A stretch of 64,000 nucleotides of DNA from an uncultured Desulfobulbaceae bacterium (GCA_947259115.1 CAMYKS010000006.1:88079-152078); one strand, 5' to 3'. Shown: positions 26,626 to 40,419, counted from the stretch's first letter. The notes: generated from the sequence alone by a model not told the origin. Made by a program: numbers and translations.

Positions 26626-26720
26626 AAAAAAAGCCTCCACAGGGCTTAATTCACCCAGAGAAGGCTGTACAGATATATCGAGGTTTACCTCTATGCATGG
26701 GGATTAGCCTCAAGTAGAGT
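26626..26720 (-). promoter_or_regulatory. Candidate attenuator in the aor leader (terminator with competing upstream pairing)
   Basis: Minus strand: AGCCTTCTCTGGGT...AGCCCTGTGGAGGCTTTTTTT terminator about 75 nt upstream of the start; upstream GAGGCT could pair with its 5' arm; TTGACA near 26773-26768. Confidence 0.4.
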
Positions 26721-27061: not shown

Positions 27062-27385
27062 TTATGTTTCTTTTTCCTTTTTTTTGTCAGTATCTATGGG
27101 GCATGGTTCTCCTGCCTCGGCAAAGGCGGCACAGGCCATGGTGCCCTTGACATCTATTTTGGTGTCATCTTCTTTCTTCTCACTTTTATCCAGCGGGCAT
27201 GGTTCTCCGGCTTCAGCAAAAGCGGTGCAGGCCATGGTGTCCTCCACAGACATTTTAGAGTCATCTGTTTTCTCTTTCTTTTCTTCAGCTTCATGGATTG
27301 GACATGGCTCGCCGGCCTCGGCAAAAGCACTGCAGGCCATGGTATCCACGACTTCTTTTTTGACTGATTTTTTTTCATCGTCCAT
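27062..27385 (-). CDS. Small charged protein with three TMACxAFAEAGEPCP repeats
   Basis: Three near-identical 15-aa cores separated by K/E/D linkers; GGAG RBS upstream. Confidence 0.85.
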   Translation of the reverse strand: MDDEKKSVKKEVVDTMACSAFAEAGEPCPIHEAEEKKEKTDDSKMSVEDTMACTAFAEAGEPCPLDKSEKKEDDTKIDVKGTMACAAFAEAGEPCPIDTDKKKEKET

Positions 27386-27472
27386 GAGTATATCTCCCGT
27401 TAGGCATTTTCTTCCCCCTCAACAATCCCGAGGCAAGTTATTTTTTAACTTAATAATTATAAATTAACTATT

Positions 27473-27572
27473 CTTTAGCTTATTTGCACAAATTTTTTTA
27501 AAAGCTGTTTTTTTGTCTGTCATGGAAGGACGTAAAGGGGCTGCAGTAAATTCTACAGTATCCGGGATATTA
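27473..27572 (+). repeat. 100-bp direct repeat, left copy (right copy at 40185-40286)
   Basis: CTTTAGCTTATTTGCACAAATTTTTTTAAAAGCTG...GGACGTAAAGGGGCTGCAGTAAATTCTACAGTATCCGGGATATTA, nearly identical in both places. Confidence 0.93.
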
Positions 27573-27859
27573 GAACTTCAACCATAAATAAGAATTTCAT
27601 TTTTCCACTGCATACCTGAACACATTAAGAATCATTCATGCTCAAGGTTACAAGCAGTAATTTGGACTTTCAGAGATGCAAGAATACCCAATTATCTATG
27701 TTCCCCTGAGGGAAGATTAAATATATAGGTAGTTTGACTTAAGAGGGAGAATGTACTTGAAAGTTTAAACGGCGGAAGCCGAACCCATCGCCTACTACTT
27801 TTTTTAAAATAATATTATCATGTTAAGCTTATACTGGCAACAGCTCGATAAGCTATAAT

Positions 27860-28276
27860 TTAAGGACCAGGGATATCTATCGGTAGAACAGCCGGCCCGA
27901 AGAGGATATTTCTTATTTTGCTGATCAGGGTGTCCACATCAAACGGTTTCTCCACAAGAAAATGATCGGTTTCAGAAATCCCTTGATTGGCAACTGAAGG
28001 AGCAATGTAGCCGGACATAAAAAGAACCCGAATCTCGGGATACAAAGCGGCAAACTGCCTGGCCAGGTCGAAGCCGCTCATTTTCGGCATCATGACGTCG
28101 GTGAGCAGCAGATCAATTTTTTCCTGTTTTTCGGCCGTAAGCAGAGCTCTCTCGGCGCTGGAAGCCGCAAGACACCGATAGCCATAAAAAGAAATTTGCT
28201 CTTCAGTAACCTTTAGAACAATGGGGTCATCATCTACTATGAGGACTGTTGCGGTTTCTTTTTTTTGCTTTTGCAT
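27860..28276 (-). CDS. Single-domain response regulator (receiver)
   Basis: VLIVDDD, DLLLTDVMMPKMSG, FMSGY and KPF motifs. Confidence 0.9.
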   Translation of the reverse strand: MQKQKKETATVLIVDDDPIVLKVTEEQISFYGYRCLAASSAERALLTAEKQEKIDLLLTDVMMPKMSGFDLARQFAALYPEIRVLFMSGYIAPSVANQGISETDHFLVEKPFDVDTLISKIRNILFGPAVLPIDIPGP

Positions 28277-28414
28277 ATAGTTCTTTACATTGAAATTTCG
28301 AGGCTTATTCCCTTAATCCCTGCCAAATGGACAAGCTTCTGGCAGACCTTTGAAGAAGTCTCTCCTCGGTTGCTCTCCCTTAAAAGGGCTTTCTCTGATA
28401 TACGCTCAGAGCAG

Positions 28415-28795
28415 TTAAAGGTTTTCTGTGCTTCCCCCCGCGTGGGAAGCTTTTTTTGACTGCTGGGCAATCTTCCTCATATCGCATATTACTTTTTTAT
28501 ATTGGGTAGATGTGCCAGGGTGAATCTGAGTCCTTCCATTGTATTCTTCCATTACATGCATTTCGTTTTCTATATATTTCAGGAGATTTGGGTCATATTT
28601 CATAAGGAGCATGAGCAGCAGGTCTTGGGTAATTTTTGCTTTAGACAGGCTTTGCGATAATGTTAATACTTTCTGGGTAAGATGCTGAACAACCTCCTGT
28701 TGCGAATCAATTATTCTCTTTAATGATTTTGAGTTATTATTCATGTTTGCGCCTTTATTGAAATCATGCCTCATAGGATGTCTCCCGATTCCCAC
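28415..28795 (-). CDS. Hypothetical protein (start possibly MNNNSK at 28744)
   Basis: ORF between the HD-GYP and receiver genes on the same strand; coiled-coil-like. Confidence 0.55.
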   Translation of the reverse strand: MGIGRHPMRHDFNKGANMNNNSKSLKRIIDSQQEVVQHLTQKVLTLSQSLSKAKITQDLLLMLLMKYDPNLLKYIENEMHVMEEYNGRTQIHPGTSTQYKKVICDMRKIAQQSKKASHAGGSTENL

Positions 28796-29520
28796 TTAGA
28801 AGAATATCGGGCTCCTGTTTCTCGAAACACACTTTGAAATGCTTGCACAATCTCAGGGTCAAACTGTCTGCCGGCATGTATATGAAGCTCAGCAAGGGCG
28901 TCTTCCTTTCTCCGCCTGGGCCGATAAGGCCGGTCAGTGCTTATGGAATCAAAGCTGTCCGCTACACAAATTATCCTTGCCGACAGGGGGATAACATCGC
29001 CTGTCAAGTTGTCCGGGTATCCTTTGCCGTCAATTCTTTCATGATGATGCTTGACTGCTGTTGATACACCATGCAGCTGCGAAATGGGCTTGATGATTTC
29101 GGCACCTCTGGCAGGGTGTTTCTTGATGAGTTCGAACTCCTCTTCAGTAATTCCGACTGGTTTATCCAGCAAAGCATCATAGGTTCCTGTCCTGCCTATG
29201 TCATGCATAAGTCCGGCAATTTTGAGTGTTTCAATGTCCTTGTTTGGAAGCCCCATTTTTTTGCCGATAGCAACGGCATAAAACGTCACCCGCTCAGAAT
29301 GCCCTTTTGTCCAGCGGGACCGTTTATCTGCAGCATGCGCAAGTACTCTGGCTTTACAGATATTTACAGCGGTATTTAATTGGGTCGGATCTCCATGGAC
29401 GACTTTACATACATCAGCCCATGGATCAAGGTGAGTCGGTGTCGTAATTTCAAGAGACCCTGGAGGGGTTACAGAGGGAACTGTTATAATTCTTTTTTTT
29501 TGCGTCTTTTTTCTTCCCAT
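28771..29520 (-). CDS. HD-GYP domain protein (putative c-di-GMP phosphodiesterase)
   Basis: TKGHSERV, MHDIG, HHERIDGKGYP, ARIICVADSFD and RPY motifs. Confidence 0.9.
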   Translation of the reverse strand: MGRKKTQKKRIITVPSVTPPGSLEITTPTHLDPWADVCKVVHGDPTQLNTAVNICKARVLAHAADKRSRWTKGHSERVTFYAVAIGKKMGLPNKDIETLKIAGLMHDIGRTGTYDALLDKPVGITEEEFELIKKHPARGAEIIKPISQLHGVSTAVKHHHERIDGKGYPDNLTGDVIPLSARIICVADSFDSISTDRPYRPRRRKEDALAELHIHAGRQFDPEIVQAFQSVFRETGARYSSKWESGDIL

Positions 29521-29621
29521 GTGCCACCCAGATGGATGCCGTATAAACAGGAAAATACCATAAGTCCGGTAATGACTATTCCCATTAACATTTGTTCAGG
29601 AGTTAAGGGTGCTAAATTCAT
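29484..29621 (-). CDS. 45-aa TM ORF missing from the ORF track; possibly the frameshifted N-terminus of the HD-GYP protein
   Basis: AGGAGG RBS; MNLAPLTPEQMLMGIVITGLMVFSCLYGIHLGGTWEEKRRKKKEL*; overlaps the HD-GYP start across an A9 tract. Confidence 0.65.
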   Translation of the reverse strand: MNLAPLTPEQMLMGIVITGLMVFSCLYGIHLGGTWEEKRRKKKEL

Positions 29622-29830
29622 GAGGTGCCTCCTTTTGCACTATGCCAACCCAACATGTTGGGTTGGACATTGTTGTTAAGCTTGTTACGATAAAACATTG
29701 TTAATACAAAGATACGATTCTCATTCGCTTTTATGCCGTCAATTTCCTTTCGTCGTAAAAAGGAGGTTAATTTCTGATTTGAATTCTAAGTGATATTATA
29801 GTAATGAAGCAACTATAAAATTGAACAATA

Positions 29831-29861
29831 TACGTATTTATATACGTATATATAATACGTA
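29831..29861 (-). promoter_or_regulatory. Triple TACGTA motif upstream of the HD-GYP unit
   Basis: TACGTA at 29831, 29843 and 29856 (13 then 12 nt spacing read on the minus strand). Confidence 0.6.
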
Positions 29862-30099
29862 CTAAATGGTGTAACTATTTATATTATATTACTTTTATTA
29901 TTTTTATTATTGCCGAATAATTTTCAAAGAAAGAAGCCGTGTATTAAAAGAATAATTGTTTAATGCGGCAAAGGAGAAATTGGCAGAGTGGTTGAACGAG
30001 CTATGAACAATGCTGGTGATGAGTTCTTTCCGTGTCGCCCGTTATATTCACCATCTGCTTTGAAGCGTTCTCTTGAAATAAAGTGTTGCGTGGCCATGT

Positions 30100-30128
30100 C
30101 AAAATGCCCCGCTGCTTGCGGTTGGGAT
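30100..30128 (+). repeat. Palindromic short repeat, copy 1 (resembles IS200/IS605- or REP-type ends)
   Basis: CAAAATGCCCCGCTGCTTGC is identical to 34382-34401. Confidence 0.65.
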
Positions 30129-30239
30129 GGATGGCATCCAATGATGTTTTAATGTTTTCAAGAAAGTTGTCGGCCTTCATGTAGCCGTAATGCCCCATCC
30201 CTTGGCTTGTGGGGATAGATCACTTGAGGCAACTTGCTT

Positions 30240-31244
30240 TTACAAATAGGATTTCAGAAGGCTTTTTCTCAGGCTTGTTTTTTTACCCTGCAGGCCGAGC
30301 TTCTTTCTTATCTGAAAGCGGTGGGTTTCAACGGTCCTGGGAGATATGTCCAACACGGCGGCAATCTCTTTTGTGCTCAGCCCCTGTTTTGTGAGGTTTG
30401 CCACCTGTATTTCCTTGGCAGTGAGCTTGAAAAGAAGCAACAGCCGATTGTAAAGGAACGGTGAGGCAAGAGCACTGAGGTTCTGCTCTATAAGAGCAAA
30501 AGTGTTTTTTTGCTCGGCGCTGAGTTTTGATCCCTTCAGCCTGTCAATATACGGCAGTATCATTTTTTCGATTTTCCCTTTAAGTTCTACATCATACTGC
30601 GCCCTTTCCTCGTCCCTTCTTTTCAGCAGGACCTCAAGGGCGATATTGCTTTCCTGCATCGCCTGTGTCTTTTTATGCAGCTTTTCCGCGGTGATTTTAT
30701 GCTCTTTAATCTCACGCTCGAGGGAGGCGACCGTTTCTGATAGTTGGGCCGTTCTCTCCGCAACACGGTGTTCAAGCTTATCCCGTGCCTCCTGCAGATC
30801 GGCAAGCAGAAAGACGCGTTCCTTTTCCAATCGCTTCTGTTCAATGCTGCGCCTGGCCAGGCCGCATATTTCCACCATGTTCAGCGGTTTTTTCAGGAAA
30901 AAGTCTACACCCATCTTGTAGCAGCGTTGGATTTCCTCGTCTTCGCCATGACCAGTGATAACTACAAGTGTGAAGGGCGATTCACGGTTAATCTTAATTG
31001 CTTTCATAAAATCATAACCGTCCATAACCGGCATTCTCAAATCGAGAAAAATCAACTCAGGGGATTCTCCAGAAAATGCTATAAGCCCCTCTTTGCCGTT
31101 ATCGGCAAAAGAGAGTTCGTAGCCTTCGTTTGCCAAGGCCATTTTAATAGCCATTTGTACGGTTTGCTCATCATCCACAACCAGTACCTTCGGAACAGAA
31201 ACTGTTTGAATCATCTGTGTTGTTGCTTCATCTGACAAAGTCAT
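30240..31244 (-). CDS. Response regulator: receiver, coiled coil and LuxR-type HTH
   Basis: VLVVDDE, FLDLRMPVMDG; C-terminal LTAKEIQVANL..QGLSTKEIA..L.IS.RTVETHR..IRKKLG. Confidence 0.93.
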   Translation of the reverse strand: MTLSDEATTQMIQTVSVPKVLVVDDEQTVQMAIKMALANEGYELSFADNGKEGLIAFSGESPELIFLDLRMPVMDGYDFMKAIKINRESPFTLVVITGHGEDEEIQRCYKMGVDFFLKKPLNMVEICGLARRSIEQKRLEKERVFLLADLQEARDKLEHRVAERTAQLSETVASLEREIKEHKITAEKLHKKTQAMQESNIALEVLLKRRDEERAQYDVELKGKIEKMILPYIDRLKGSKLSAEQKNTFALIEQNLSALASPFLYNRLLLLFKLTAKEIQVANLTKQGLSTKEIAAVLDISPRTVETHRFQIRKKLGLQGKKTSLRKSLLKSYL

Positions 31245-31279
31245 GGTTTCAACTCCTAGATATTCTGCTTTTCATGGCA

Positions 31280-33256
31280 TTAATGATGTACAGTAATCGG
31301 CAAAGAAATAATAAAGGTCGCTCCCCAGCCCTGCATCCGGCGATGCTCAATGGTACCGTTATGCTCTTTGATAATATTGCTGATAATGGCCAGACCAAGG
31401 CCTACTCCCTTTTCAGCTTTTTTCGTAGTAAAGAAGGGTTCAAATATGTCTTGCTCATTTGCCGTTTCGACGCCTGGACCGTTATCGGCAAAAGTAGTTT
31501 CCAGGAAATCCCCGGCTTTTTTCATGCTTACCCTGATCTTGCCGATTCCAACCTCTTCTATGGCATCAATGCTGTTTTGCAGCAGATTAATAAAAACCTG
31601 CTCAAGCTGCATTTTGTTACCGTAAATCTTTGGCAGATCATTCTCAATATCCCGGATTAAAACCTGGCTGCGAAGCCGCATTCTTTCGGCCATGAGGATC
31701 ATAGCATCATCAAGTACCTCGGGCAGGTACAAATCGGAACGCGACGCAATGTTTTTCCGGCCAAAATTGCGTAGGTGCTCGGTTATCAGCGTTATTCTTG
31801 CAACCTGCCGCAGAGCCTCCCTGAATTTATATCGTATTTCCTTCTCATCGAACCGTCCCTCATCAAGGTCCCGCAAAGCGGCTTGGTAGGCAATTTTAAC
31901 AAAGGTGAGCGGTTGGTTTATCTCATGGGCAATACCTGTGGCAATTTCACCGATTGATGCAAGTTTCGAAAGTGAAAGGGCCTTGAGCTCCATTTTCTTT
32001 CGTTCTTTTTCGGATTTTATTCTTTCGGTCACATTTCTGATAATGAGTTCGATTGCAGGCTCTCTTGCAAAGATTAATTTACTTGCTTTTATGTCAATGA
32101 TTATCCGGTTTCCGTCTTTGTGTAATACTTCAATCTGGTTTGGCGACCCGGGTGATTCCACAGATATCTTGTCCAGCCGTCTCCAGCCTGCCGGTTGCTG
32201 TTGAGCGGGTTGAAGCAGTTCCTCTGCATTGCGGCCGAGCAGTTCTTCACAGTTGTACCCGAAGATATTGCAAAAGGAATGATTGAGCCAGGTGAACTTT
32301 CCTTCTTGAATCATAGCCACGCCGTCAGCTATCCCTTCCGAGATGCTGCGGAATTTATTCTCACTTTCCCGTAAGGCAAGTTCAATTTTTTTGCGTGATT
32401 GTATCTCTCCCTCCAAATCCTCGACCTTCTTTTCCAGGTCGGTTTTCAAGGTATTAATTGTTTTGAAGGAGTTGTTCAGTGTTACGATCATGTTGTCGAA
32501 GGTGTCCGCCAACACCCCTACATCATCTTTGGCTTCCTTACTAATGCCATAATTCATGGAAATGTTTATCAGCCGCTTTAGTGGTTTAGTGACTTCCCGG
32601 ATTGTGAAATAGGTAGCTACACTGACAAGACCTAGAAAAAAAATCAGGAGTAGAACTCCTTTATTCAGCATTTCGTGGATAGCTTTTTGCAAATATGTTT
32701 TATTGAGGATCAAACCAACAAAACCGACGACATACATATCATTTGGGCTGGGAGGAGCATTAACTTCATCGAAATACATGTAATCAATGCTGAGTTGAGA
32801 AGATGCGGACTGTACCGGATGCCAGAACTCGATCCTCCTGGCATTATCAAGGTACAAGGTTTCCGGAGATATTTTTAACTGTTCAAAAAACTGCCCGGTA
32901 GCATTCTTTTTTTTGATGCAAATCTCCGTTTGATCCCAAGGCGGTTTAGTTTCTCTGTATAAAAGCTGCCCCTCAATATTATAGGCACAGACGCCGATTA
33001 CATCTTCAACACTGAGAGCTGCCCCGAGTGATTCCGAAATTTTATTTTTGTCTTCGGCGAACATGCCGAGCCGGACATTACTGGCTAAAACCGAGGTCAG
33101 CATTTTACCGTGTTTGATGTTCTCATTAGTAAGGTATTCTTTCTGGATTTGGAGGTAGAAGATACTGAGGGTGAGAGTTATAAGTAACATTACACCAGAC
33201 AGATGGGTGAAGATTTTGGCGCTGAAACTTTTGTTGATTATTCTGAAAAATATCAA
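31280..33256 (-). CDS. Membrane sensor histidine kinase (periplasmic domain, HAMP-like, PAS, HisKA, HATPase)
   Basis: Two TM segments; PAS; H-box GIAHEINQPL; N-box QVFINLLQNS; DNGPG, FEPFFTTK and GLGL. Confidence 0.95.
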   Translation of the reverse strand: MIFFRIINKSFSAKIFTHLSGVMLLITLTLSIFYLQIQKEYLTNENIKHGKMLTSVLASNVRLGMFAEDKNKISESLGAALSVEDVIGVCAYNIEGQLLYRETKPPWDQTEICIKKKNATGQFFEQLKISPETLYLDNARRIEFWHPVQSASSQLSIDYMYFDEVNAPPSPNDMYVVGFVGLILNKTYLQKAIHEMLNKGVLLLIFFLGLVSVATYFTIREVTKPLKRLINISMNYGISKEAKDDVGVLADTFDNMIVTLNNSFKTINTLKTDLEKKVEDLEGEIQSRKKIELALRESENKFRSISEGIADGVAMIQEGKFTWLNHSFCNIFGYNCEELLGRNAEELLQPAQQQPAGWRRLDKISVESPGSPNQIEVLHKDGNRIIIDIKASKLIFAREPAIELIIRNVTERIKSEKERKKMELKALSLSKLASIGEIATGIAHEINQPLTFVKIAYQAALRDLDEGRFDEKEIRYKFREALRQVARITLITEHLRNFGRKNIASRSDLYLPEVLDDAMILMAERMRLRSQVLIRDIENDLPKIYGNKMQLEQVFINLLQNSIDAIEEVGIGKIRVSMKKAGDFLETTFADNGPGVETANEQDIFEPFFTTKKAEKGVGLGLAIISNIIKEHNGTIEHRRMQGWGATFIISLPITVHH

Positions 33257-33313
33257 ATCGAACCCTTTAAGTTTCCTTTGCTTTATGATGCCCTGTCCTT
33301 ATTCTCTACTGCC

Positions 33314-34285
33314 CTATTCATGACTATTCAATGCCATAATGTCTATCCCCAGTAACTTTGCTGCCAAGTGATTCACCCGGACATTAACTTTGCGGACCTG
33401 GACAGGCGAAAAATCGGATACTTTGGTGCCGTTCAGTATTTTAAGGGCCAGTTCCCCGGCCTGCTTTCCCATGTCGGTAGCATCAAAAGATACGGAAAGC
33501 GTCGCCCCCAGTTTTAAATATTTTTCTGCAAATGTGAGGACCGGTATCCTATTTTCCAGAGAGAAGAGAAAAATATAATCCAAAGTCTGCGGGGTGATCA
33601 CCGTTTGGTCCGGCAGCATCCAGTAACAATCAATTTTATCTTTCATCCTGGCGAGCCGACTGGGAATTTCCTTTGAAGTTTTTACGGGCAGAGCAACAAG
33701 ATGTATGCCAATCCGCTTGGCAAATTCTTCCGCTTCACGAACAAGGGTGCCAGTTCTGTCGGGATTGTAAAGCAGGCCTATACGCTTGATTTCCGGAATA
33801 AGGTGGATGAGGCTGGTAAGCTGCTGCTTTGCAGTCACGTTCATATTAATACCTGTAATGTTGTCTTGTGTCCCGGCTACCAATCCCGGGTTGGGGGCCA
33901 GGAGATATATAATCGGGATATCGCTGATACCCTTGACCAGCGCAAGGCTGCTGCTGCCAATCACCAAAAGGAGATCAGGATGCCGCCTGGCAATTTCCTG
34001 CTTCAGATGTTGGAGATTCTTTTCTGCGGAAAGGATACGTGTGGTAACGGTGTGGGGCTGAATAGTTTTCAGGCCGCGGGTTGAGATATCACGAAGTACT
34101 ATGGTTTCAAACCCCTGCAAGGCATTGTTGTAAACCTGCAACTGTGCACTCTGGACCACAAGGATATCGTCGGCCCAGGCATGGGTCTTTTGAAAGCTGA
34201 TGAAAATAAACAGGATCAGGAATATTTTCTTATTTGAAATTATTCTTAACATATGAGAGAGTAGTGATGCATTAAAGTAATGCAT
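33314..34285 (-). CDS. ABC-type periplasmic substrate-binding protein (ABC_sub_bind family); no permease nearby
   Basis: Signal peptide; PDLLLVIG, NITGI, KRIGLLYNP, WMLPD and MGKQAGELALKIL motifs; directly upstream of the kinase. Confidence 0.85.
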   Translation of the reverse strand: MHYFNASLLSHMLRIISNKKIFLILFIFISFQKTHAWADDILVVQSAQLQVYNNALQGFETIVLRDISTRGLKTIQPHTVTTRILSAEKNLQHLKQEIARRHPDLLLVIGSSSLALVKGISDIPIIYLLAPNPGLVAGTQDNITGINMNVTAKQQLTSLIHLIPEIKRIGLLYNPDRTGTLVREAEEFAKRIGIHLVALPVKTSKEIPSRLARMKDKIDCYWMLPDQTVITPQTLDYIFLFSLENRIPVLTFAEKYLKLGATLSVSFDATDMGKQAGELALKILNGTKVSDFSPVQVRKVNVRVNHLAAKLLGIDIMALNSHE

Positions 34286-34381
34286 GGCTTTTCACTTTAA
34301 AGGTTGGTTTTTGAAAGTTCAATAAGAAAGAAAAAAGAGGGATAAACATATTTGAAAGTGTTGATGTTTTACAAGGCCCAC

Positions 34382-34410
34382 CAAAATGCCCCGCTGCTTG
34401 CTGCGGGGAT
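34382..34410 (+). repeat. Palindromic short repeat, copy 2
   Basis: CAAAATGCCCCGCTGCTTGCTGCGGGGAT forms a hairpin. Confidence 0.65.
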
Positions 34411-34528
34411 AGGTCACATGAAAGGCGACAACTTTCTTTTACTTCTTAATTAACAAGAAATCCTTGATAAGGCTAATAAAAAAGGAAAAAAAACATGCAG
34501 TGATATATCTGCAACTTCCGGTTAAAAA

Positions 34529-36412
34529 ATGAAAAACGCCATGTTAAGTACTGCCAGTATCTTGCCCCTGTTTCTGGCTACAGTTTTATCTGTTCCGGCC
34601 TTGGGAGCTGAGCTGAGCCCGGCCGAGCTGGACGAGCTTTATCTTTATTTCAAGGATGACCAACTGGTGGAGGTCGAGACCCGCAGCCCGAAACCGCTCA
34701 ATCAGGTAGCTGAGAACGTCACGGTTATCACCGCCGAGGAGATTGAGGGCATGAACGCCCATACGGTAGCCGAGGTCTTGAACCGTGTGCCAGGCATTAT
34801 TATGGAGGGCAGCTACACTGATTTCGGCAGCTCTTCAACAATTTTTATTCAGGGTTCTGATTATGAACATGTCCTGGTGCTCCTTGACGGCATCCGCTGG
34901 GGTTATGTCAGTTTCGATTATGCGGAGACCAACACCATCCCGGTGCAGATCATCAAGCGTATCGAGATTATCAAGGGGGCTGCCTCATCCACCTGGGGCT
35001 CTTCGCTTGGGGGAGTGGTGAACATCATCACAAAGGATACCGGAAAGGACGCCATTCCGACCGGCTCCCTGTCCGGTTCCTATGGAGAGAACAGCACCAC
35101 CCATCTGCGGGGCGATGCGGCAGGCATGCTGGGCCGGCTTGGCTATTATATTTATGGAAGTTATCAGGAGTCGGACGGTATCGAGGACAGCCGTTTCTTC
35201 GACAACAAGAACTTTTACGTTAAGCTGCAGCTGGACCTGCCAAATCAAATTGACATTGGGGGCACCTTCGGTCACAACAGGCCGGAATATAAATATTACC
35301 ATATTCCAGCGTGGGATGAAGAAGGGGTGATCAATGATCGTGTCTATAACGCCACCGCCTTCTTTACAGCTCCATTGGGAAACACAGTCACACTTAACCT
35401 GAATGGTTACTGGTTTAAAGATACGTTCACCGATAAATGGCAGCCGATTTCAGCCGGAATTCCCATTAATAAAGTGCGCTACAAGGGTGAATCAACCGGC
35501 GCCAGCGGACGTCTTGTCTGGGACACCAATACACAAACCCTGGTCCTGGGTATGGACTATGAGCGGCGGGAGAACACCGAAACTGATCAGTTGACGTCCT
35601 ACACATCAAAAAGCCAACATGATGAAATTTGGGCTTTTTTTATCAATGATACCATACGGCTTAACCGGCTGACAGTAATCCCCGGATTGCGCTATGACCA
35701 TCTTTCCATTGCCGATGACAAGATCAGCCCCAGCCTCGGCCTGACTTATCAGGTGAATGATAAAACCCTGCTGCGGGGCAATGTTTCGCGCGGCTTCCGC
35801 AAACCCTATGCCTCGATAAAAACAGGTGATTCATTATTCTTTCCAGAGGCTAACCCGGACCTGGAGTCAGAAGAGATCACCTCATTTCAGGCCGGGGTGG
35901 AAAATAATGCCATTCCCTTTGTGAAGATCAAGGCAAACCTTTTCCTGCATCGGGCAGTAGATGTCTGGGTGAATGATCCTGACACCTTTATCTTTGTGAA
36001 CAACGGTGATTTTGACCGGCAGGGCGTTGAGTTGGAACTGCAGACCGCCTCGTTTCACAATTTTTCGGCCAGCGTCAATGGCCTGTACCTGCGCATGAAG
36101 CCGGATGATGAATCCAGTGCCACCCATTATGAGGCTAATATTCTTGTAAAGTATGACGATGGGACCTGGCGGGGGCAATTGTTCGGCCATAATGTCTGGC
36201 TCGGCGACGTCTCCCCGCCTGTTACCTGGGACGATGAAACAGGCACCTTTATCTGGGATTTAGTTCTCGGCAGGCGTTTTCATCTGCAGCAGGATACATC
36301 AGCCGAGCTCTTTGCCGAACTGCATAACGTCTTTGACGATGACCAGTATTTTCAATGGGTTTTTCCCAATGCCGGACGCTGGTTTGAAGCTGGCATCAGA
36401 TTTACATATTAA
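34529..36412 (+). CDS. TonB-dependent outer-membrane receptor
   Basis: Signal peptide; plug motifs VTVITAEEIE, EVLNRVPG and RIEIIKGAASSTWG..GGVVNIITK; GLRYD; C-terminal aromatic residue (GIRFTY). Confidence 0.95.
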   Translation: MKNAMLSTASILPLFLATVLSVPALGAELSPAELDELYLYFKDDQLVEVETRSPKPLNQVAENVTVITAEEIEGMNAHTVAEVLNRVPGIIMEGSYTDFGSSSTIFIQGSDYEHVLVLLDGIRWGYVSFDYAETNTIPVQIIKRIEIIKGAASSTWGSSLGGVVNIITKDTGKDAIPTGSLSGSYGENSTTHLRGDAAGMLGRLGYYIYGSYQESDGIEDSRFFDNKNFYVKLQLDLPNQIDIGGTFGHNRPEYKYYHIPAWDEEGVINDRVYNATAFFTAPLGNTVTLNLNGYWFKDTFTDKWQPISAGIPINKVRYKGESTGASGRLVWDTNTQTLVLGMDYERRENTETDQLTSYTSKSQHDEIWAFFINDTIRLNRLTVIPGLRYDHLSIADDKISPSLGLTYQVNDKTLLRGNVSRGFRKPYASIKTGDSLFFPEANPDLESEEITSFQAGVENNAIPFVKIKANLFLHRAVDVWVNDPDTFIFVNNGDFDRQGVELELQTASFHNFSASVNGLYLRMKPDDESSATHYEANILVKYDDGTWRGQLFGHNVWLGDVSPPVTWDDETGTFIWDLVLGRRFHLQQDTSAELFAELHNVFDDDQYFQWVFPNAGRWFEAGIRFTY

Positions 36413-36527
36413 TCCTCCTGATTAAAATATTTTAACCTGCACCTACCTTCTGTCAGATTGTTATGGAAATCTTTCGGTATACGGCATGAGTATAAAACGC
36501 TTGCTACGGGATTAGGTGTTCATGAAA

Positions 36528-36558
36528 TACGTAAAATAAATACGTAATTGCATACGTA
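36528..36558 (+). promoter_or_regulatory. Triple TACGTA motif upstream of the peptide precursor
   Basis: TACGTA at 36528, 36541 and 36553 (13 then 12 nt spacing). Confidence 0.6.
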
Positions 36559-36716
36559 TATAATCTAATTTTTGTTGTGCATCATTATCGATCATTCGTT
36601 AAATTTGAATTATGAAAAAAGTATTTTGCTTCGTTATATGCGCATGAAAAAACCGAAACAAATGAATAAGGACGGTGTGTTGCATCAACAATGAAATCTT
36701 ACTAAGGAGTTGTGAA

Positions 36717-36824
36717 ATGGAAAAGAAGAAACTCATTGTATTGGCTAAAGGAACTGACCCGAAGGAAATAGCTGTCAGAGCTGCATGTTGTAAGGTGGGA
36801 CCCAGAAGGTTTAAAGCCTGGTAA
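36717..36824 (+). CDS. 35-aa RiPP-like precursor (geopeptide-type) MEKKKLIVLAKGTDPKEIAVRAACCKVGPRRFKAW; missing from the ORF track
   Basis: AAGGAG RBS 7 nt upstream; IVL..G leader followed by a CC core; hairpin right after; radical SAM/SPASM gene about 1.8 kb downstream. Confidence 0.85.
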   Translation: MEKKKLIVLAKGTDPKEIAVRAACCKVGPRRFKAW

Positions 36825-36843
36825 AATCAAAACTTCTTATCTT

Positions 36844-36877
36844 GCACAAATGGGGGATGAAACTCCCCCATTTGTGC
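36844..36877 (+). terminator. Hairpin immediately after the precursor gene
   Basis: 13-bp stem: GCACAAATGGGGG / CCCCCATTTGTGC. Confidence 0.7.
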
Positions 36878-37053
36878 CCATGGAAGGCTTTTTCAGCTGC
36901 TGTTGATGATTTTGCCGGCCCGGACTGGAATGTTTCCAGCAGTTTTGGCCTAATTTACAGATGTTCTCAATCAAGATGGGCCAGATAATCAAGCCGGTTT
37001 GCCATTTTGCAAACAAATTTCGGACCGTTCATTGCCGGTCAATATCTCCAGGA

Positions 37054-38334
37054 CTATCTGCGATGTCCCATGATAAACCGTCGGAACTCTTGCTGCGTGC
37101 ATCCCCATATTACGACCAAGGACATTATTCCGCCGCTGAACAGGAATATGACGTTCAGGCGATGATTGAAATAGTCGGCTGCCACTCCCGCAATTCCCAT
37201 GGCAACAGGTGAAACACATAGCACAAGAGTTGTTAATACAGATAAGACCCTACCCCTCATTTCCTGGGGGATAGAGACCTGAAGTTTCGAATATATATAG
37301 TTACTGTTTAATCCAGTCAGAATCCCGTTGCCGGTCATAATGATCAAGGCGAGCCATGTCTGATGGACAAATGCCAGAGCACCATACCCTATACCCATGA
37401 AAAACATACATGCCATCATCAGCCAACCTATCCCATGGCCACGCTTGGGAAGGATGGCCGGCAACCAGTAGCCGATGGTGGTGCCCAGGGCCATACCTGC
37501 GAAGATATACCCGACCCAATCGAGCGTGGCATTCAGGAACCTGCCGTCCTTCACATAAAAGGGCATGAGGACAAAAAAAGGCTCAACAAAAAAATTGAGC
37601 GCTCCGTAGACCCAAATAACATTACGCAGCCCTCTATTCTTCAAAACAAAGGCAAACCCTTCTTTTGTATCTGTGAAAAGCTGCTTAACAGATTTTCGCC
37701 AATCGCCAAGCCCACCCTGCGGTTTCTGGATTGTCGTAATAAAACTCTCACTCGCAGCACTGAAAATAAAGGTTAAACTATCCAGGATAAATATTGCCGG
37801 CCCACCGAGCATACGGTATATGACAGCACCAACCCCTCTGCCCAGCAGATCCGCTACCTGTATCAGCACCATCTCCAGGGCATTGGCGGTTGCCACCTTA
37901 TCAAAGGGTACAAGATCAGGGGTAATCGATATCACTGCACTGCTGAAAAATATATTTGTTATCGCCATGCCGACGTAGACAACAAAAATCACACTTATTA
38001 TGAAACCCGGGTTTTTTGCATAAAACACAAGGGCAAGTGCCATTACCAGCGACAGCAGACCGGACACGATATCGCAAATTACAATGATTTTTTTTCTTGA
38101 AAACCTGTCAGCCAGAGCTCCACTTATCGGCCCGAGAATGATATTGGGGATTGCGGCGATCATCAGAAGAGTCCCCATCATGGTGGCGGAGTCAGTCGTC
38201 TCGACAATCCAGAGCATCAAGGCGATCCTGGCCAGACTCTCGCCAAACATGCTGACTGTTTGTCCCTGCCAAAGTAAGAGGTAGTTTTTATTTAATAAAC
38301 GGCTTGGTATCTGTTTCTGACCAGAAAATTGCAT
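37054..38334 (-). CDS. MFS transporter (macrolide/peptide efflux-like)
   Basis: LLWQGQTVSMFG, MFS motif A GALADRFSRKK and IPQEMRGRV; about 12 TM segments. Confidence 0.92.
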   Translation of the reverse strand: MQFSGQKQIPSRLLNKNYLLLWQGQTVSMFGESLARIALMLWIVETTDSATMMGTLLMIAAIPNIILGPISGALADRFSRKKIIVICDIVSGLLSLVMALALVFYAKNPGFIISVIFVVYVGMAITNIFFSSAVISITPDLVPFDKVATANALEMVLIQVADLLGRGVGAVIYRMLGGPAIFILDSLTFIFSAASESFITTIQKPQGGLGDWRKSVKQLFTDTKEGFAFVLKNRGLRNVIWVYGALNFFVEPFFVLMPFYVKDGRFLNATLDWVGYIFAGMALGTTIGYWLPAILPKRGHGIGWLMMACMFFMGIGYGALAFVHQTWLALIIMTGNGILTGLNSNYIYSKLQVSIPQEMRGRVLSVLTTLVLCVSPVAMGIAGVAADYFNHRLNVIFLFSGGIMSLVVIWGCTQQEFRRFIMGHRR

Positions 38335-38579
38335 TTGTACGATCGTATTGGTGAAAGATTAATAAACTTCACGGCGAAAATTGTAAAAAAGATACATACC
38401 ATCTAAATACTCGACACACATCTTTATGATGTTTTTCTTTTGTATTTACATAATCTATCTAAAGGACTTGGGCTGTTAATTGCATTTGCCTTTTTGAGTA
38501 AAGGAGTATAGTTTTTTATCTGAAGACTTCGTTTAATATACTGTTGGTCAACTTATACCTGTTGAGAAAAGATTACGCC

Positions 38580-39884
38580 ATGCTACTTTCCCATTACCTG
38601 AAAGTTTTTTCGTATCCTGCCGAACCGGGACATCTGCTTCTTTATTCTTTAAAAAACTCGGCCATGGTTTTATTGCCTGAGGAGGTGTATCGGCTTCTGC
38701 AGCAGGGTGAAATTCCGGATGAGTACTTAGGCACCCTGACTGAACTCGGCATTTTGGTGTCTGATCTGGTAGAGGAGCGCCAGGAGGTTCGGTCCATGCT
38801 GGCAGAGGTCAACCGGCTTGATCCAGGTTTGAATGTCTCAATTATTCTTGGTCTGGCCTGCAATTTTTCATGCGTCTACTGTTACGAGGGGTCATTAAAG
38901 GCCAACAGGGCCATGGCAGATGCGACCGTCGAGCAGCTAATTGTCTTTCTCAAAGAGCGCTACACAGCTCACACCAAACAGAATCTCACTCTCGATTTCT
39001 ATGGTGGCGAACCCTTGCTGTATACCAGGAGGATAAAAGATATTGCCGGTCCATTGAAGAATTTTGTTGAACAACAGGGTGGCAAATTCAATTTCTCAAT
39101 TGTGACAAATGGTTCTCTACTCACCCCTGAGACAGTCAAAGAATTGTTGCCGTTTGGTCTTTATGGTGTCAAGGTCACGGTGGATGGGCCACCAGACGAG
39201 CATAACCGGCTAAGACCATTTAAATCAGGACAACCGAGCTTTGATATCATTCTTGCCAATATAAGAGACTGCTGCGATTTAGTTAAAATCGCTTTCGGCG
39301 GCAACTTTACGAAGGAAAACTATGAAAGGATGCCGGAATTGTTGGATAGTATATCGGATCTCGGACTCAGTCCGGAAAAACTGAATGATGTCCAGTTTCA
39401 TCCGGTCATACAGACAACTGATCAATACACCAACCCGGAATTTACCGCCGGCTGTGTCTCAGTTAACGAGCTTTGGGTGGCGGATGCCTCTCTCATGATA
39501 CGGGAGGATGTGTTGCGGCGTGGTTATCGTACCCCAAAGCTGATCCCTTCACCCTGTATGATAGATATGAACGATGCCTTTGTCATCAATTTTGACGGAA
39601 GACTCTACAAATGCGTAGCCCTGATCGGCCATAGCAAGTATGCAGTGGGTGATGTATGGAAAGGATTCACCAGCTATAGGAAAACGTATCATTTAGACCA
39701 CTGGCAGCACCATAAAGAATGCCTTGATTGCGAATACCTGCCGCTATGTTTCGGTGGCTGCCGCTATGCGGAATTACAGCGCTCGGGCTCAATGAAAAAC
39801 GTGGACTGCATGCGGGGATACTGGGACGGCGTCCTGGAGAAAATAGTTCTGCAAGACGCATGTTTTCAGGAAAACACCAGGTGA
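38580..39884 (+). CDS. Radical SAM/SPASM peptide maturase (geopeptide maturase-like); ORF extends to 38544
   Basis: N-terminal extension that may be an RRE; CNFSCVYC; FYGGEPLL; SPASM C...YKC...CLDCEYLPLCFGGC...C. Confidence 0.9.
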   Translation: MLLSHYLKVFSYPAEPGHLLLYSLKNSAMVLLPEEVYRLLQQGEIPDEYLGTLTELGILVSDLVEERQEVRSMLAEVNRLDPGLNVSIILGLACNFSCVYCYEGSLKANRAMADATVEQLIVFLKERYTAHTKQNLTLDFYGGEPLLYTRRIKDIAGPLKNFVEQQGGKFNFSIVTNGSLLTPETVKELLPFGLYGVKVTVDGPPDEHNRLRPFKSGQPSFDIILANIRDCCDLVKIAFGGNFTKENYERMPELLDSISDLGLSPEKLNDVQFHPVIQTTDQYTNPEFTAGCVSVNELWVADASLMIREDVLRRGYRTPKLIPSPCMIDMNDAFVINFDGRLYKCVALIGHSKYAVGDVWKGFTSYRKTYHLDHWQHHKECLDCEYLPLCFGGCRYAELQRSGSMKNVDCMRGYWDGVLEKIVLQDACFQENTR

Positions 39885-40184
39885 ATTACTGATATATTGA
39901 GAATTTTGAAGTCGATTCGCTTTGGGGTGGGGTGAACGAAATTCTGTTATTTTTTCCCCTGTGCTATTTTTCTCATTAATAGCCAAAAGAAAAGGGGCAT
40001 TCCGTATAAATAATAATAAATCTTTTACCTATTTGATTCGGAATCCTTAAAAAAGTCCTGATTTAATATATAGATATTTTGACTCTGATAGAAGAGAAAT
40101 GCCCAAATGTCCAGCCTGACCTGACTTACTTTTTAAAAATAATAAAGACAATTGCTATAAAAAACAGGGCCGTCTCCGACCCTG

Positions 40185-40286
40185 CTTTAGCTTATTTGCA
40201 CAAATTTTTTTAAAAGCTGTTTTTTTGTGCTTGTCACGGGAGGACGTAAAGGGGCTGCAGTAAATTCTACAGTATCCGGGATATTA
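40185..40286 (+). repeat. 100-bp direct repeat, right copy
   Basis: Near-identical to 27473-27572. Confidence 0.93.
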
Positions 40287-40419
40287 AATTTCAACGGGAG
40301 TCTTTTCTTCCCACAAATTATGATGCTCTAATATCTCGAAGTCTCGTATACTCGCTTATCTGCGGATGACATCAACCTCATTGATAAATGTGGTTGATGT
40401 CATCTGGATTAAAAAAACA

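What the first reader, a model, noticed from the sequence alone, without database searches (positions are those of the whole stretch)
27860..39884. Candidate RiPP-based quorum-sensing circuit in a Gram-negative anaerobe, coupled to c-di-GMP
Seen together: a CC-containing precursor (36717), rSAM/SPASM maturase (38580), MFS transporter, TonB-dependent receptor, orphan periplasmic binding protein next to a histidine kinase, REC-LuxR regulator, and an HD-GYP/receiver output unit; shared triple-TACGTA boxes precede the precursor and HD-GYP. Known: geopeptide precursor/maturase pairs are bioinformatically defined in Geobacter-like bacteria with, to my knowledge, no established product or function; peptide QS is mainly known from Gram-positives. 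Inference: the peptide is modified, exported, re-imported across the outer membrane, presented by the binding protein to the kinase, and activates LuxR-driven positive feedback plus c-di-GMP turnover. No leader peptidase is visible in the block.
Basis: partly seen in the sequence, partly recalled or inferred. Interest (0 to 1): 0.9.

Follow-up and report, generated by a model that had tools for sequence, protein, structure and literature searches.

The report
Conserved geopeptide peptide-sensing gene module
A small cysteine-containing peptide and its modifying enzyme sit, in over a hundred anaerobe genomes, next to an outer-membrane importer, a binding protein and a sensor kinase, which suggests a peptide signal that Gram-negative bacteria make and sense themselves.

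Summary
The maturase scores 525.8 bits against TIGR04280, the geopeptide radical-SAM maturase (cut-off 400).

The triple TACGTA box occurs only twice in the 3.99-Mb genome. One copy precedes the precursor and the other precedes the HD-GYP operon.

Among 33 related loci with at least 7 kb on both sides, a TonB-dependent receptor lies near the maturase in 33, the PF04392 binding protein in 29, a kinase in 30, and all three in 28. Three different gene orders keep this linkage. A CC-peptide precedes 88 of 105 maturase copies.

A co-fold model supports contact between the binding protein and the kinase's periplasmic domain (0.68 against a best control of 0.42).

The regulators differ between lineages: NtrC-type, LuxR-type or REC–HD-GYP. 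The MFS exporter is not conserved, and no peptidase recurs.

Nothing shows that the peptide is the sensed ligand, how it leaves the cell, whether accumulation depends on cell density, or whether the boxes activate or repress.

This is a new variant of known kinds and is worth experimental work.

The parts
27473..27577 (+). Left copy of a ~105-nt direct repeat that brackets the whole cluster
   Evidence: It is 94% identical to 40187-40291, and the genome holds only these two copies.
27860..28276 (-). Stand-alone receiver (REC) protein, 138 aa; last gene of the box-controlled P2 operon
   Evidence: Pfam Response_reg 3.5e-21.
28415..28795 (-). orf126, no known family; its likely start is the ATG at 28744
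   Evidence: No Pfam or NCBIfam hit. No Atlas hit scores 0.9 or more.
28771..29520 (-). HD-GYP domain protein (predicted c-di-GMP phosphodiesterase), 249 aa
   Evidence: HD_5 1.5e-35. The HD and HHExxDGxGYP motifs are in the sequence.
29484..29621 (-). 45-aa single-TM ORF with a good SD site that overlaps the HD-GYP start; an A9 run lies in the overlap
   Evidence: Fusion of the two frames by a -1 shift is my reading of the sequence and was not confirmed.
29831..29861 (-). P2: triple (A)TACGTA boxes, spaced 13 and 12 nt when read on the minus strand, upstream of the TM45/HD-GYP operon
30240..31244 (-). Response regulator: REC, a ~140-aa coiled-coil-like linker, then a GerE/LuxR HTH
   Evidence: Response_reg 1.2e-23 and GerE 3.9e-14.
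31280..33256 (-). Sensor histidine kinase: TM1 15-33, a ~160-aa periplasmic PDC-like domain, TM2 ~193-222, PAS, HisKA, HATPase
   Evidence: AF2 model with pLDDT 85.8. Best PDB fold matches are CitA and a LapD-ortholog periplasmic domain.
33314..34285 (-). Orphan periplasmic binding protein with a signal peptide, family PF04392
   Evidence: ABC_sub_bind 2e-35. PDB relatives are 3lkv, 6hni and 3lft. No ABC permease or ATPase lies in the block.
34529..36412 (+). TonB-dependent receptor, 627 aa, with no N-terminal signalling extension
   Evidence: Plug 1.1e-22 and barrel 1.6e-27. It is one of only two Plug-domain proteins in the genome.
36528..36558 (+). P1: triple (A)TACGTA boxes, 159-189 nt upstream of the precursor ATG
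36717..36824 (+). Geopeptide-type precursor, 35 aa: MEKKKLIVLAKGTDPKEIAVRAACCKVGPRRFKAW
   Evidence: SD AAGGAG. It aligns with 26 homologous precursors, with CC invariant and L9 and G12 near-invariant. The G402 ortholog is 72% identical.
36844..36877 (+). 14-bp stem-loop directly after the precursor; probably a terminator or attenuator shared with the convergent MFS gene
   Evidence: The 81-nt stretch folds at -32.4 kcal/mol, z = -5.0. A comparable hairpin follows the G402 precursor (sequence).
37054..38334 (-). MFS transporter (MFS_1/MFS_3, EntS-like), a candidate inner-membrane exporter
   Evidence: It is conserved in G402 (79%) and L057 (37%) but not in most loci.
38580..39884 (+). Geopeptide radical SAM/SPASM maturase (the ORF opens at a TTG at 38544)
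   Evidence: TIGR04280 525.8 bits against a cut-off of 400. CxxxCxxC and the SPASM cysteines are invariant in 22 sequences.
40187..40291 (+). Right copy of the flanking direct repeat

Best explanation
The block is a self-contained circuit that makes and senses a peptide. Its core is a five-part module, conserved across phyla: precursor, rSAM maturase, TonB-dependent receptor, orphan binding protein and sensor kinase.

Proposed course, with the status of each step:
1. The 35-aa precursor is recognised through its leader (…IVL..G…) and modified at or near the invariant Cys-Cys by the TIGR04280 rSAM/SPASM enzyme. Family membership is shown. The chemistry is inferred, and is probably a thioether or similar cross-link.
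2. The product leaves the cell. In this genome the first stage could be the EntS-like MFS. This step is inferred, and the route across the outer membrane is unknown.
3. The product is too large for porins, so it re-enters the periplasm through the dedicated TonB-dependent receptor. This is inferred from the invariant linkage.
4. The orphan PF04392 protein binds it and docks on the PDC-type periplasmic domain of the kinase. Contact between the two proteins has model support. Ligand identity is inferred.
5. The kinase signals to the REC-coiled-coil-LuxR regulator encoded in the same operon. That regulator acts at the only two triple ATACGTA sites in the genome. One controls the precursor (feedback) and the other controls a TM-peptide/HD-GYP, orf126 and REC operon (c-di-GMP turnover). 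The cis-element link is shown. The identity of the binding protein and the sign of regulation are inferred.
For: Family:
- The rSAM is above the TIGR04280 cut-off.
- Its Fe-S cysteines are invariant.
- CC precursors were found upstream of all 26 maturase copies in the first 25 loci and of 88 of 105 unique copies overall.
- 8 of 27 precursors match TIGR04229.

Linkage:
- A TBDR lies near the maturase in 25 of 25 loci, and the SBP in 22 of 25.
- In the 33 loci with at least 7 kb on both sides, the TBDR is present in 33, the SBP in 29, a kinase in 30, and all three in 28.
- Three gene orders, in named Desulfobulbales, Geobacterales and Nitrospirota records, keep the genes together.
- In all five genomes or records where two maturase copies were fetched (G166, G255, G021, G338, L140), each copy has its own precursor with a different core and its own TBDR.
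- TBDR clades follow the peptide core classes: 19 changes against a shuffled mean of 35.2, and 0 of 200 shuffles are as low.

Sensing apparatus:
- The kinases next to the SBP share a two-TM topology with a periplasmic loop of about 120-165 aa.
- That loop folds as a PDC domain.
- In the co-fold, SBP plus kinase periplasmic domain scores 0.68 against a best control of 0.42. That mark was reached by 58 of 80 solved complexes and 2 of 110 mismatched pairs. The runs agree in at least 86% of contacts, and the partner's pLDDT is at least 72.
- No ABC importer family is among the 25 commonest in the flanks, and ABC_tran appears in only 2 of 100 flanking ORFs.

Output:
- The triple box occurs only at P1 and P2 in the genome, and the two promoters are paralogous.
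- Genome G202, which has an SBP-HK-LuxR operon, has its single TRCGYA triplet 133-162 nt upstream of its precursor.
- L080, whose regulator is the closest (REC 43% and C-terminal part 31% identical), has two ATACGT half-sites upstream of its precursor.
- REC-HD-GYP regulators lie directly beside the module in L054, L066, L070, L072, L105 and L119.
- This genome has only two TBDRs and one TonB.
Against: - No tool result shows that the peptide is the ligand.
- The solved PF04392 structures bind free L-Trp, L-Tyr or L-Phe (passage of PMC10443332).
- The SBP family is wider than the maturase: 84 against 40 of 401 genomes. SBP or SBP-kinase genes occur with no TBDR or maturase within the fetched stretch in L067 and L069.
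- No conserved exporter or leader peptidase was found, so release and cleavage are unexplained.
- The maturase and the sensor genes carry no boxes.
- The third box abuts a TATAAT, which would suit a repressor. An alternative -10 (CATTAT) would place the boxes at about -40, -52 and -65, as for an activator. Both are my reading of the sequence.
- Boxes were seen in only 1 of the 105 other loci.
- The co-fold puts a low-confidence loop of the kinase into the SBP cleft. This may be an artefact, or may mean that the cleft is not free for a peptide.
Confidence: 0.5

Rival explanations
1. The modified peptide is a secreted carrier, such as a metallophore or another scavenging molecule. It is retrieved through the TBDR. 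The SBP-kinase pair reports uptake of the loaded carrier, as siderophore and methanobactin systems report theirs. Feedback on the precursor would then be supply control and not cell counting.
For: - An invariant Cys-Cys could bind soft metals if it is left free.
- A RiPP precursor next to a TBDR and a periplasmic binding protein is the layout of methanobactin operons (recalled).
- The MFS resembles the enterobactin exporter EntS, at 92.6 bits and below the cut-off.
- Each peptide has its own receptor in the genomes that hold two copies.
Against: - No inner-membrane importer, reductase or metal regulator recurs in the flanks.
- Matches to the E. coli Fur consensus do not exceed the window background: 11-12 of 19, where 76 of 255 background windows score 12 or more. 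This is weak evidence, because the consensus comes from another organism.
- The invariant partner is a kinase, not a transporter.
- The nearest maturase families (CefB, TIGR04463, PapB) use cysteines in cross-links, which would leave no free thiols.
Confidence: 0.2
2. The TBDR-SBP-kinase set senses an outside compound unrelated to the peptide, for instance an aromatic amino-acid derivative or a foreign molecule. The RiPP would be only an output of that pathway, for example an antimicrobial or a protective peptide.
For: - The known PF04392 ligands are aromatic amino acids.
- SBP or SBP-kinase genes exist without a maturase nearby (L067, L069).
- The SBP family is more widespread than the maturase.
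- The boxes regulate the precursor, which fits an output gene equally well.
Against: - Free amino acids need no TBDR.
- The TBDR sits directly beside the precursor and maturase in all three gene orders.
- TBDR clades follow the peptide core classes, although relatedness alone can produce such a pattern.
- No immunity gene or dedicated exporter recurs, as an antimicrobial would need.
Confidence: 0.2
3. The neighbourhood has no functional meaning. The genes travel together only because they lie on one mobile island.
For: - The cluster is bracketed by a ~105-nt direct repeat that occurs only at these two places in the genome.
- It is patchy within the genus: 2 of 13 genomes have the maturase.
Against: - Linkage persists through three rearranged gene orders and across named Desulfobulbales, Geobacterales and Nitrospirota records.
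- A shared cis-element ties two operons together.
- The co-fold supports SBP-kinase contact.
Confidence: 0.03

Closest known systems
Geopeptide system as defined by NCBIfam/TIGRFAMs (TIGR04229 precursor, TIGR04280 maturase)
   Same: - The maturase is above the family cut-off.
- The precursor is short, has an invariant CC and lies next to the maturase.
   Different: - The window's own precursor does not match TIGR04229 at E up to 10.
- The family models name no product or function.
- My searches of the paper library for 'geopeptide' and 'TIGR04280' found 0 papers.
- I could not read the family descriptions, so I do not know whether the link to TBDR, SBP and kinase is recorded there.
Methanobactin operons (RiPP chalkophore with TonB-dependent transporter MbnT and periplasmic binding protein MbnE); recalled, not tested by any search
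   Same: A ribosomal peptide with essential cysteines is encoded next to a TBDR and a periplasmic binding protein used for re-uptake by the producer.
   Different: - The maturase here is an rSAM/SPASM enzyme, not MbnBC.
- The binding protein is PF04392 and is paired with a histidine kinase.
- No sigma/anti-sigma pair is present.
- No metal link was found.
Binding-protein-dependent sensor kinases such as LuxP-LuxQ and TorT-TorS; recalled
   Same: An orphan periplasmic binding protein is encoded beside a kinase with a PDC/PAS-like periplasmic domain.
   Different: - The binding-protein family differs.
- Here the ligand is presumed to be a peptide that needs a TBDR to reach the periplasm.
RpfC-RpfG (DSF quorum sensing to an HD-GYP response regulator); recalled
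   Same: A cell-to-cell signal pathway ends in an HD-GYP c-di-GMP phosphodiesterase. REC-HD-GYP regulators lie beside the module in six related loci.
   Different: - In the window, HD-GYP and REC are separate genes under transcriptional (box) control.
- The presumed signal is a peptide, not a fatty acid.
rSAM-RiPP clusters of Bacteroidota that include a TonB-dependent transporter (Itf cluster of Bacteroides thetaiotaomicron; an uncharacterised Parabacteroides cluster with a two-component system)
   Same: An rSAM-modified peptide is encoded with a TonB-dependent transporter, and in one case with a two-component system (passage of PMC11002830; passage of PMC9389541).
   Different: - Those clusters carry a C39-peptidase ABC exporter, and no orphan binding protein is mentioned in the passages I read.
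- The maturase families and the phyla differ.
- The role of the TBDR is not stated in those passages.
Gram-positive autoinducing-peptide systems (Agr, Com) and SCIFF ranthipeptides
   Same: A ribosomal peptide, a histidine kinase, a response regulator and feedback on the precursor. A role for SCIFF ranthipeptides in clostridial quorum sensing appears only as a title in the reference list of PMC9389541.
   Different: Those organisms have no outer membrane and therefore no TBDR or binding-protein step. Their kinases sense the peptide directly.

Membership tests
Geopeptide system (TIGR04280/TIGR04229) | The maturase scores above the curated TIGR04280 cut-off | tested here: met
   525.8 bits against 400. 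It is the only such copy in the genome.
Geopeptide system (TIGR04280/TIGR04229) | Radical SAM CxxxCxxC motif plus SPASM cysteines | tested here: met
   C94, C98 and C101 and seven further cysteines are invariant in 22 sequences. The SPASM domain TIGR04085 covers residues 338-419.
Geopeptide system (TIGR04280/TIGR04229) | A short CC precursor lies next to the maturase | tested here: met
   A 35-aa ORF with an SD site. It aligns with 26 relatives, with CC invariant.
Geopeptide system (TIGR04280/TIGR04229) | The precursor matches the TIGR04229 model | tested here: not met
   0 families at E up to 10 for the window's peptide. 8 of the 27 aligned precursors match.
Ranthipeptide/sactipeptide-type thioether RiPPs | The maturase belongs to a characterised thioether-forming family (PapB, CefB, SCIFF) | tested here: not met
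   CefB 168 bits against 600, PapB 131 against 340, and SCIFF 96.5 against 425. These are related families, but the maturase is below every cut-off.
Ranthipeptide/sactipeptide-type thioether RiPPs | Cys-to-carbon thioether cross-links in the product | not testable with these tools
   This needs mass spectrometry or NMR of the modified peptide.
Peptide quorum sensing (autoinducer circuit) | The secreted peptide is the ligand of the linked sensor | not testable with these tools
   Only conserved linkage and TBDR clades that follow the core classes bear on it.
Peptide quorum sensing (autoinducer circuit) | The precursor gene is controlled by the linked regulator (feedback) | tested here: inconclusive
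   The box set is unique and shared by P1 and P2. A comparable triplet occurs in G202. The binding protein and the sign of regulation are unknown.
Peptide quorum sensing (autoinducer circuit) | Dedicated export and leader cleavage | tested here: not met
   No peptidase lies in the block. The MFS is not conserved, and no exporter family is among the 25 commonest in the flanks.
Binding-protein-dependent sensor kinase | An orphan periplasmic binding protein is encoded beside a kinase that has a periplasmic domain | tested here: met
   The SBP stop and the kinase start overlap in several loci (coordinates).
Binding-protein-dependent sensor kinase | The binding protein contacts the kinase's periplasmic domain | tested here: inconclusive
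   The co-fold scores 0.68 against a best control of 0.42. That mark was reached by 58 of 80 solved complexes and 2 of 110 mismatched pairs. Contacts agree in at least 86% between runs, and the partner's pLDDT is at least 72. The model supports binding but does not show it.
Methanobactin-like RiPP metallophore | MbnB/MbnC-type maturase and metal-responsive control | tested here: not met
   The maturase is an rSAM. No Fur-like site exceeds background (the consensus is from another organism, so this part is weak).
HD-GYP c-di-GMP phosphodiesterase | HD_5 domain with intact HD and HHExxDGxGYP motifs | tested here: met
   HD_5 1.5e-35. The motifs were read in the sequence. Enzyme activity was not tested.

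The most novel reading that the evidence does not exclude
Geopeptides are the pheromones of a widespread, so far undescribed kind of peptide signalling in diderm anaerobes (records named Desulfobulbales, Geobacterales and Nitrospirota). In this reading, an rSAM-modified Cys-Cys peptide must be pulled across the outer membrane by its own TonB-dependent receptor. A PF04392 binding protein then presents it to a PDC-domain kinase. Lineage-specific outputs follow: sigma-54 activators, LuxR-type regulators or HD-GYP enzymes. Genomes that carry two modules would then run two separate channels.
Probability: 0.4. Interest if true: 0.9.

Novelty: new variant of a known kind. Interest (0 to 1): 0.75.

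Why it matters
Geopeptide precursor/maturase pairs are defined only by sequence models. This analysis gives them a functional setting that holds in over a hundred genomes: a dedicated outer-membrane importer and a binding-protein-dependent kinase.

If the peptide is the ligand, it would show how Gram-negative bacteria can use peptide signals too large for porins. It would also link such signals to c-di-GMP, and so to the choice between biofilm and motility, in environmentally important metal- and sulfur-cycling anaerobes.

The module also occurs in cultured strains named: Geomonas paludis Red736, Geomesophilobacter sediminis Red875 and Geotalea toluenoxydans JCM 15764. The idea can therefore be tested directly.

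Tried and rejected
- Sigma-54 promoters upstream of precursors. With at most 2 mismatches there were 3 hits in 27 upstream regions against about 1.7 expected from the background rate. This is inconclusive, although near-canonical TGGCATG-N4-TTGC sites precede the precursors of L049 and L050.
- Rfam scan of 26500-41000 at E up to 1 gave 0 matches, so the long leaders contain no known riboswitch.
- Fur-box scan gave nothing above background.
- A possible second precursor at 29988-30152(+), which contains KCC. It has no family hit, a poor SD spacing, and overlaps a REP-like repeat found elsewhere in the genome. I reject it as a gene.
- orf126 has no family, and no Atlas hit scores 0.9 or more.
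- Frameshift fusion of TM45 and HD-GYP. The best relative in the genus is 44% identical, so there is no close ortholog to compare and the question is unresolved.
- Phylogenetic footprint of the boxes in the congener G402. Its contig ends 26 nt upstream of the precursor, and no triplet was found in that 72%-complete genome. This is uninformative.
- Public sequencing runs: none was listed and no RNA holder was listed.
- Paper searches. 'geopeptide' gave 0 papers and 'TIGR04280' gave 0. 'radical SAM'+RiPP+Geobacter+TonB gave 0. Geobacter+'radical SAM'+'TonB-dependent receptor'+'histidine kinase' gave 1 paper, a heme review, of which I saw only the listing. A broader quorum-sensing/TonB/RiPP search listed nothing that describes this module; I saw only the listing. 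The library lacks most subscription journals, and supplements were not open to me, so earlier mention elsewhere cannot be excluded.
- I did not run a partial-Mantel or covariation test of peptide core against SBP or TBDR, because relatedness would confound it.

Full report
WHAT IS THERE

On the minus strand:
- a stand-alone receiver (27860-28276);
- an unassigned 126-aa ORF (28415-28795);
- an HD-GYP protein (28771-29520; HD_5 1.5e-35), whose HD and HHExxDGxGYP motifs are intact in the sequence printed;
- a 45-aa single-TM ORF that overlaps its start (29484-29621);
- a REC, coiled-coil, GerE/LuxR regulator (30240-31244);
- a PAS histidine kinase (31280-33256);
- a PF04392 periplasmic binding protein with a signal peptide (33314-34285).

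On the plus strand:
- a 627-aa TonB-dependent receptor (34529-36412);
- a 35-aa ORF with a strong Shine-Dalgarno site, MEKKKLIVLAKGTDPKEIAVRAACCKVGPRRFKAW (36717-36824), followed by a 14-bp stem-loop (the 81-nt stretch folds at -32.4 kcal/mol, z = -5.0);
- after a convergent EntS-like MFS gene (37054-38334, minus strand), a radical SAM/SPASM enzyme (38580-39884).

That enzyme scores 525.8 bits against TIGR04280, 'geopeptide radical SAM maturase' (cut-off 400). It is the only such copy in the genome. No peptidase and no ABC permease or ATPase lies in the block.

THE BOXES

TACGTA occurs 12 times in the window against 4.0 expected, and 0 of 100 shuffles reach 12. Six of the 12 form two triplets. 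The triplet pattern occurs only at these two places in the 3.99-Mb genome, and the reversed control has none.

P1 (36528-36558) lies 159-189 nt upstream of the precursor ATG. P2 (29831-29861), read on the minus strand, has the same 13/12-nt spacing and points at the TM45/HD-GYP, orf126 and REC operon. The two regions align at about 75% over roughly 65 nt.

The sensor operon, the TBDR and the maturase carry no boxes.

My reading of the sequence leaves two possibilities:
- The third P1 box abuts a TATAAT, which would suit a repressor.
- A CATTAT 24 nt further on is the real -10, which puts the boxes near -40, -52 and -65, as for a class II activator.
The sign of regulation is therefore open.

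IS THE GENE SET CONSERVED?

TIGR04280 is above its cut-off in 26 of 401 sampled genomes of the phylum.

In 25 fetched loci, tblastn with the window's proteins gave these counts:
- A TBDR lies next to the maturase in 25 of 25 loci.
- The PF04392 protein is present in 22 of 25. Of the three without it, L055 and L064 are cut by contig ends at the TBDR. L063 has 6.4 kb upstream and no hit.
- A kinase is present in 21 of 25.

A scan of named genome records found 574 relatives, of which 80 loci were kept. They are mostly records named Desulfobulbales or Desulfurivibrionaceae (up to 53% identity), Geobacterales or Desulfuromonadales, and Nitrospirota or Thermodesulfovibrionales.

After two duplicates were removed there are 105 unique maturase copies. 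A TBDR lies within 7 kb in 94 of them. Of the 11 without one, 10 have under 1 kb of sequence upstream of the maturase and one has only 1.7 kb downstream. In the 33 copies with at least 7 kb on both sides, the TBDR is found in 33, the SBP in 29, a kinase in 30, and all three in 28.

Three gene orders keep the genes together:
- kinase<SBP< | >TBDR>precursor>rSAM, as in the window;
- kinase<…SBP<TBDR< | >precursor>rSAM;
- TBDR>precursor>rSAM>SBP>kinase.

The co-occurrence that would have refuted the idea if absent is strongly present.

THE PRECURSOR FAMILY

A short ORF with a good ribosome-binding site precedes all 26 maturase copies of the first 25 loci. In the alignment of 27 sequences, M1 and the two cysteines are invariant, and L9 and G12 of the leader (…IVL..G) are nearly so. 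Eight of the 27 match TIGR04229, 'geopeptide'; the window's own peptide does not.

A profile of this alignment finds a precursor for 88 of 105 copies. Eight of the misses have fewer than 150 nt of upstream sequence.

The congener G402 has MKKQKLIVLSKGVDPKEVAARAICCRLGPRRFMS. It has the same precursor, MFS and rSAM order, with the MFS 79% and the rSAM 71% identical.

Cores fall into recognisable types: CCKxGP… with a polar tail, CC…P[FY]R, CC[TS]G…S[AK]R, and CC with a hydrophobic tail. The TBDR tree follows these types: 19 changes against a shuffled mean of 35.2, and 0 of 200 shuffles are as low. Relatedness alone can produce such a pattern.

In all five genomes or records where two maturase copies were fetched (G166, G255, G021, G338, L140), each copy has its own precursor with a different core and its own TBDR.

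THE SENSING APPARATUS

Kinases next to the SBP share one topology: TM1, a periplasmic loop of about 120-165 aa, then TM2. In several loci the SBP stop overlaps the kinase start (coordinates).

The loop has no Pfam family. It folds with confidence (AF2, pLDDT 85.8) as a PDC domain. The best PDB matches are the CitA sensor domain (E 2.8e-4, TM 0.53/0.64) and the periplasmic domain of a LapD ortholog.

The co-fold of the mature SBP with this domain scored 0.68 against a best control of 0.42. That mark was reached by 58 of 80 solved complexes and 2 of 110 mismatched pairs. The runs agree in at least 86% of contacts, and the partner's pLDDT is at least 72. The model supports binding but does not show it.

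The contact is made by kinase residues 153-165. This is a loop of low confidence in the single-chain model. It lies in the SBP cleft next to invariant SBP residues (G110, P225). The placement may be an artefact.

Solved PF04392 structures bind free L-Trp, L-Tyr or L-Phe (Table 1 passage of PMC10443332). The SBP family is also wider than the maturase: 84 against 40 of 401 genomes. SBP or SBP-kinase genes occur with no TBDR or maturase within the fetched stretch in L067 and L069. The SBP-kinase pair is therefore a more general device that geopeptide loci have recruited. Its ligand here is inferred.

This genome has only two Plug-domain receptors and one TonB.

THE OUTPUTS

I scanned 100 flanking ORFs of 150-800 aa, within 1.5 kb of the module in the 33 well-flanked loci. 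The commonest families are:
- Response_reg, 24 ORFs;
- sigma-54 activator domains, 10;
- HD, 5, and HD_5, 4;
- GerE, 3;
- GGDEF, 2.
ABC_tran occurs twice. No MFS, permease or recurrent peptidase family is among the first 25.

Of ten HD-GYP proteins near the module, six are response regulators: REC-GAF-HD-GYP in L066 and L070 (directly after SBP-kinase), GGDEF-REC-HD-GYP in L072, REC-PAS-HD-GYP in L105 and L119, and REC-HD-GYP in L054. A c-di-GMP output therefore recurs. The LuxR route is lineage-specific.

Support for the assignment of boxes to the regulator:
- G202 (L053) has an SBP-kinase-LuxR operon, and its HTH is 41% identical to the window's. The only TRCGYA triplet in its 4.8-Mb genome lies 133-162 nt upstream of its precursor.
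- L080 has the closest regulator (REC 43% and C-terminal part 31% identical). It has two ATACGT half-sites upstream of its precursor.
- No other of the 105 loci has a triplet.

WHAT IT MOST LIKELY IS

I consider it settled (about 0.9) that precursor, maturase, TBDR, SBP and kinase form one functional unit.

The best explanation (0.5) is that the modified peptide is released, re-imported by its TBDR, and bound by the SBP. The SBP then signals through the PDC domain of the kinase to the LuxR-type regulator. That regulator acts at P1 (the precursor) and P2 (the HD-GYP operon).

Shown:
- family membership;
- the linkage;
- the unique shared cis-element;
- model support for SBP-kinase contact.

Inferred:
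- the chemistry of the modification;
- export;
- the identity of the ligand;
- which protein binds the boxes, and the sign of regulation;
- dependence on cell density.

Rivals:
- a scavenging carrier or metallophore with uptake-coupled signalling (0.2);
- a sensor for an unrelated cue, with the RiPP as output (0.2);
- meaningless hitch-hiking on an island (0.03).

Evidence against the favoured reading is set out in the Against line. The main points are the lack of any conserved exporter or peptidase and the amino-acid ligands of known PF04392 proteins.

COMPARISON AND NOVELTY

The maturase is a member of the geopeptide family. The precursor is a divergent member, because the model is not matched.

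The circuit resembles several known systems:
- binding-protein-dependent kinases (LuxPQ, TorTS; recalled);
- RiPP re-uptake as in methanobactin (recalled);
- a signal-to-HD-GYP output as in RpfC/RpfG (recalled).

rSAM-RiPP clusters with a TonB-dependent transporter are noted in Bacteroidota (passages of PMC11002830 and PMC9389541), without the SBP-kinase pair.

I found no paper on geopeptides or on this module in the searchable library. Subscription journals, supplements and the family descriptions themselves were not visible to me.

I rate it a new variant of known kinds, with interest 0.75.

Noticed in passing
window 27473-27577 and 40187-40291: A ~105-nt direct repeat (94% identical), present only at these two places in the genome, brackets the whole cluster. 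Within the genus only 2 of 13 genomes have the maturase; the 11 without include one 100% complete. The cluster therefore looks like an accessory island, but no integrase was seen.
   Followed up: partly
window 29484-29621 / 28771-29520, A9 run near 29495: The 45-aa TM ORF and the HD-GYP ORF overlap by 37 nt in different frames, across a run of nine A. By my reading, one extra A or a -1 slip would give a single membrane-anchored HD-GYP protein. This could be a sequencing error, slippage or two real genes. No close ortholog was available to decide.
   Followed up: partly
window 27062-27385 (-): A 107-aa ORF is made of three 96-nt tandem repeats. Each encodes TMAC[SAT]AFAEAGEPCP within a Lys/Glu-rich spacer. 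It has no family at a meaningful score. It lies just outside the left flanking repeat.
   Followed up: no
window 30100-30182 and 34382-34438: A REP-like element with a GC-rich hairpin (CCCCGC…GCGGGG) occurs after the LuxR gene and again in the SBP/TBDR divergent intergenic region. Two further partial copies lie on another contig.
   Followed up: partly
window 29645-29666 (-): A perfect 9-bp-stem palindrome (CCAACCCAACATGTTGGGTTGG) sits just upstream of the SD of the TM45 ORF, in the P2 leader. It could be an operator or a translational hairpin.
   Followed up: no
window 40420-43422 (-): A 1000-aa protein with an N-terminal TIR domain and many WD40 repeats lies directly right of the cluster. 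This architecture is reminiscent of defence or STAND-like proteins.
   Followed up: no
HK residues 153-165 / SBP cleft (window 31280-34285): The co-fold places an acidic and aromatic loop of the kinase's PDC domain in the ligand cleft of the SBP. The loop is conserved as [ED]E.L[FY]F in many orthologs. It could be a pseudo-ligand that the peptide displaces, or an artefact.
   Followed up: partly
G297, G202, G211 loci (L052, L053): In three genomes the open frame holding the maturase is 711-735 aa. In L052 and L064 an MFS fragment follows the maturase. This may be a maturase-transporter fusion or a read-through.
   Followed up: no
window 1387-1742 (+): A tmRNA gene with tag peptide ADDYNYAVAA.
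   Followed up: no
window 24969-26552 (-): An aldehyde:ferredoxin oxidoreductase (AFOR_N and AFOR_C) lies left of the cluster, which fits an anaerobic lifestyle.
   Followed up: no
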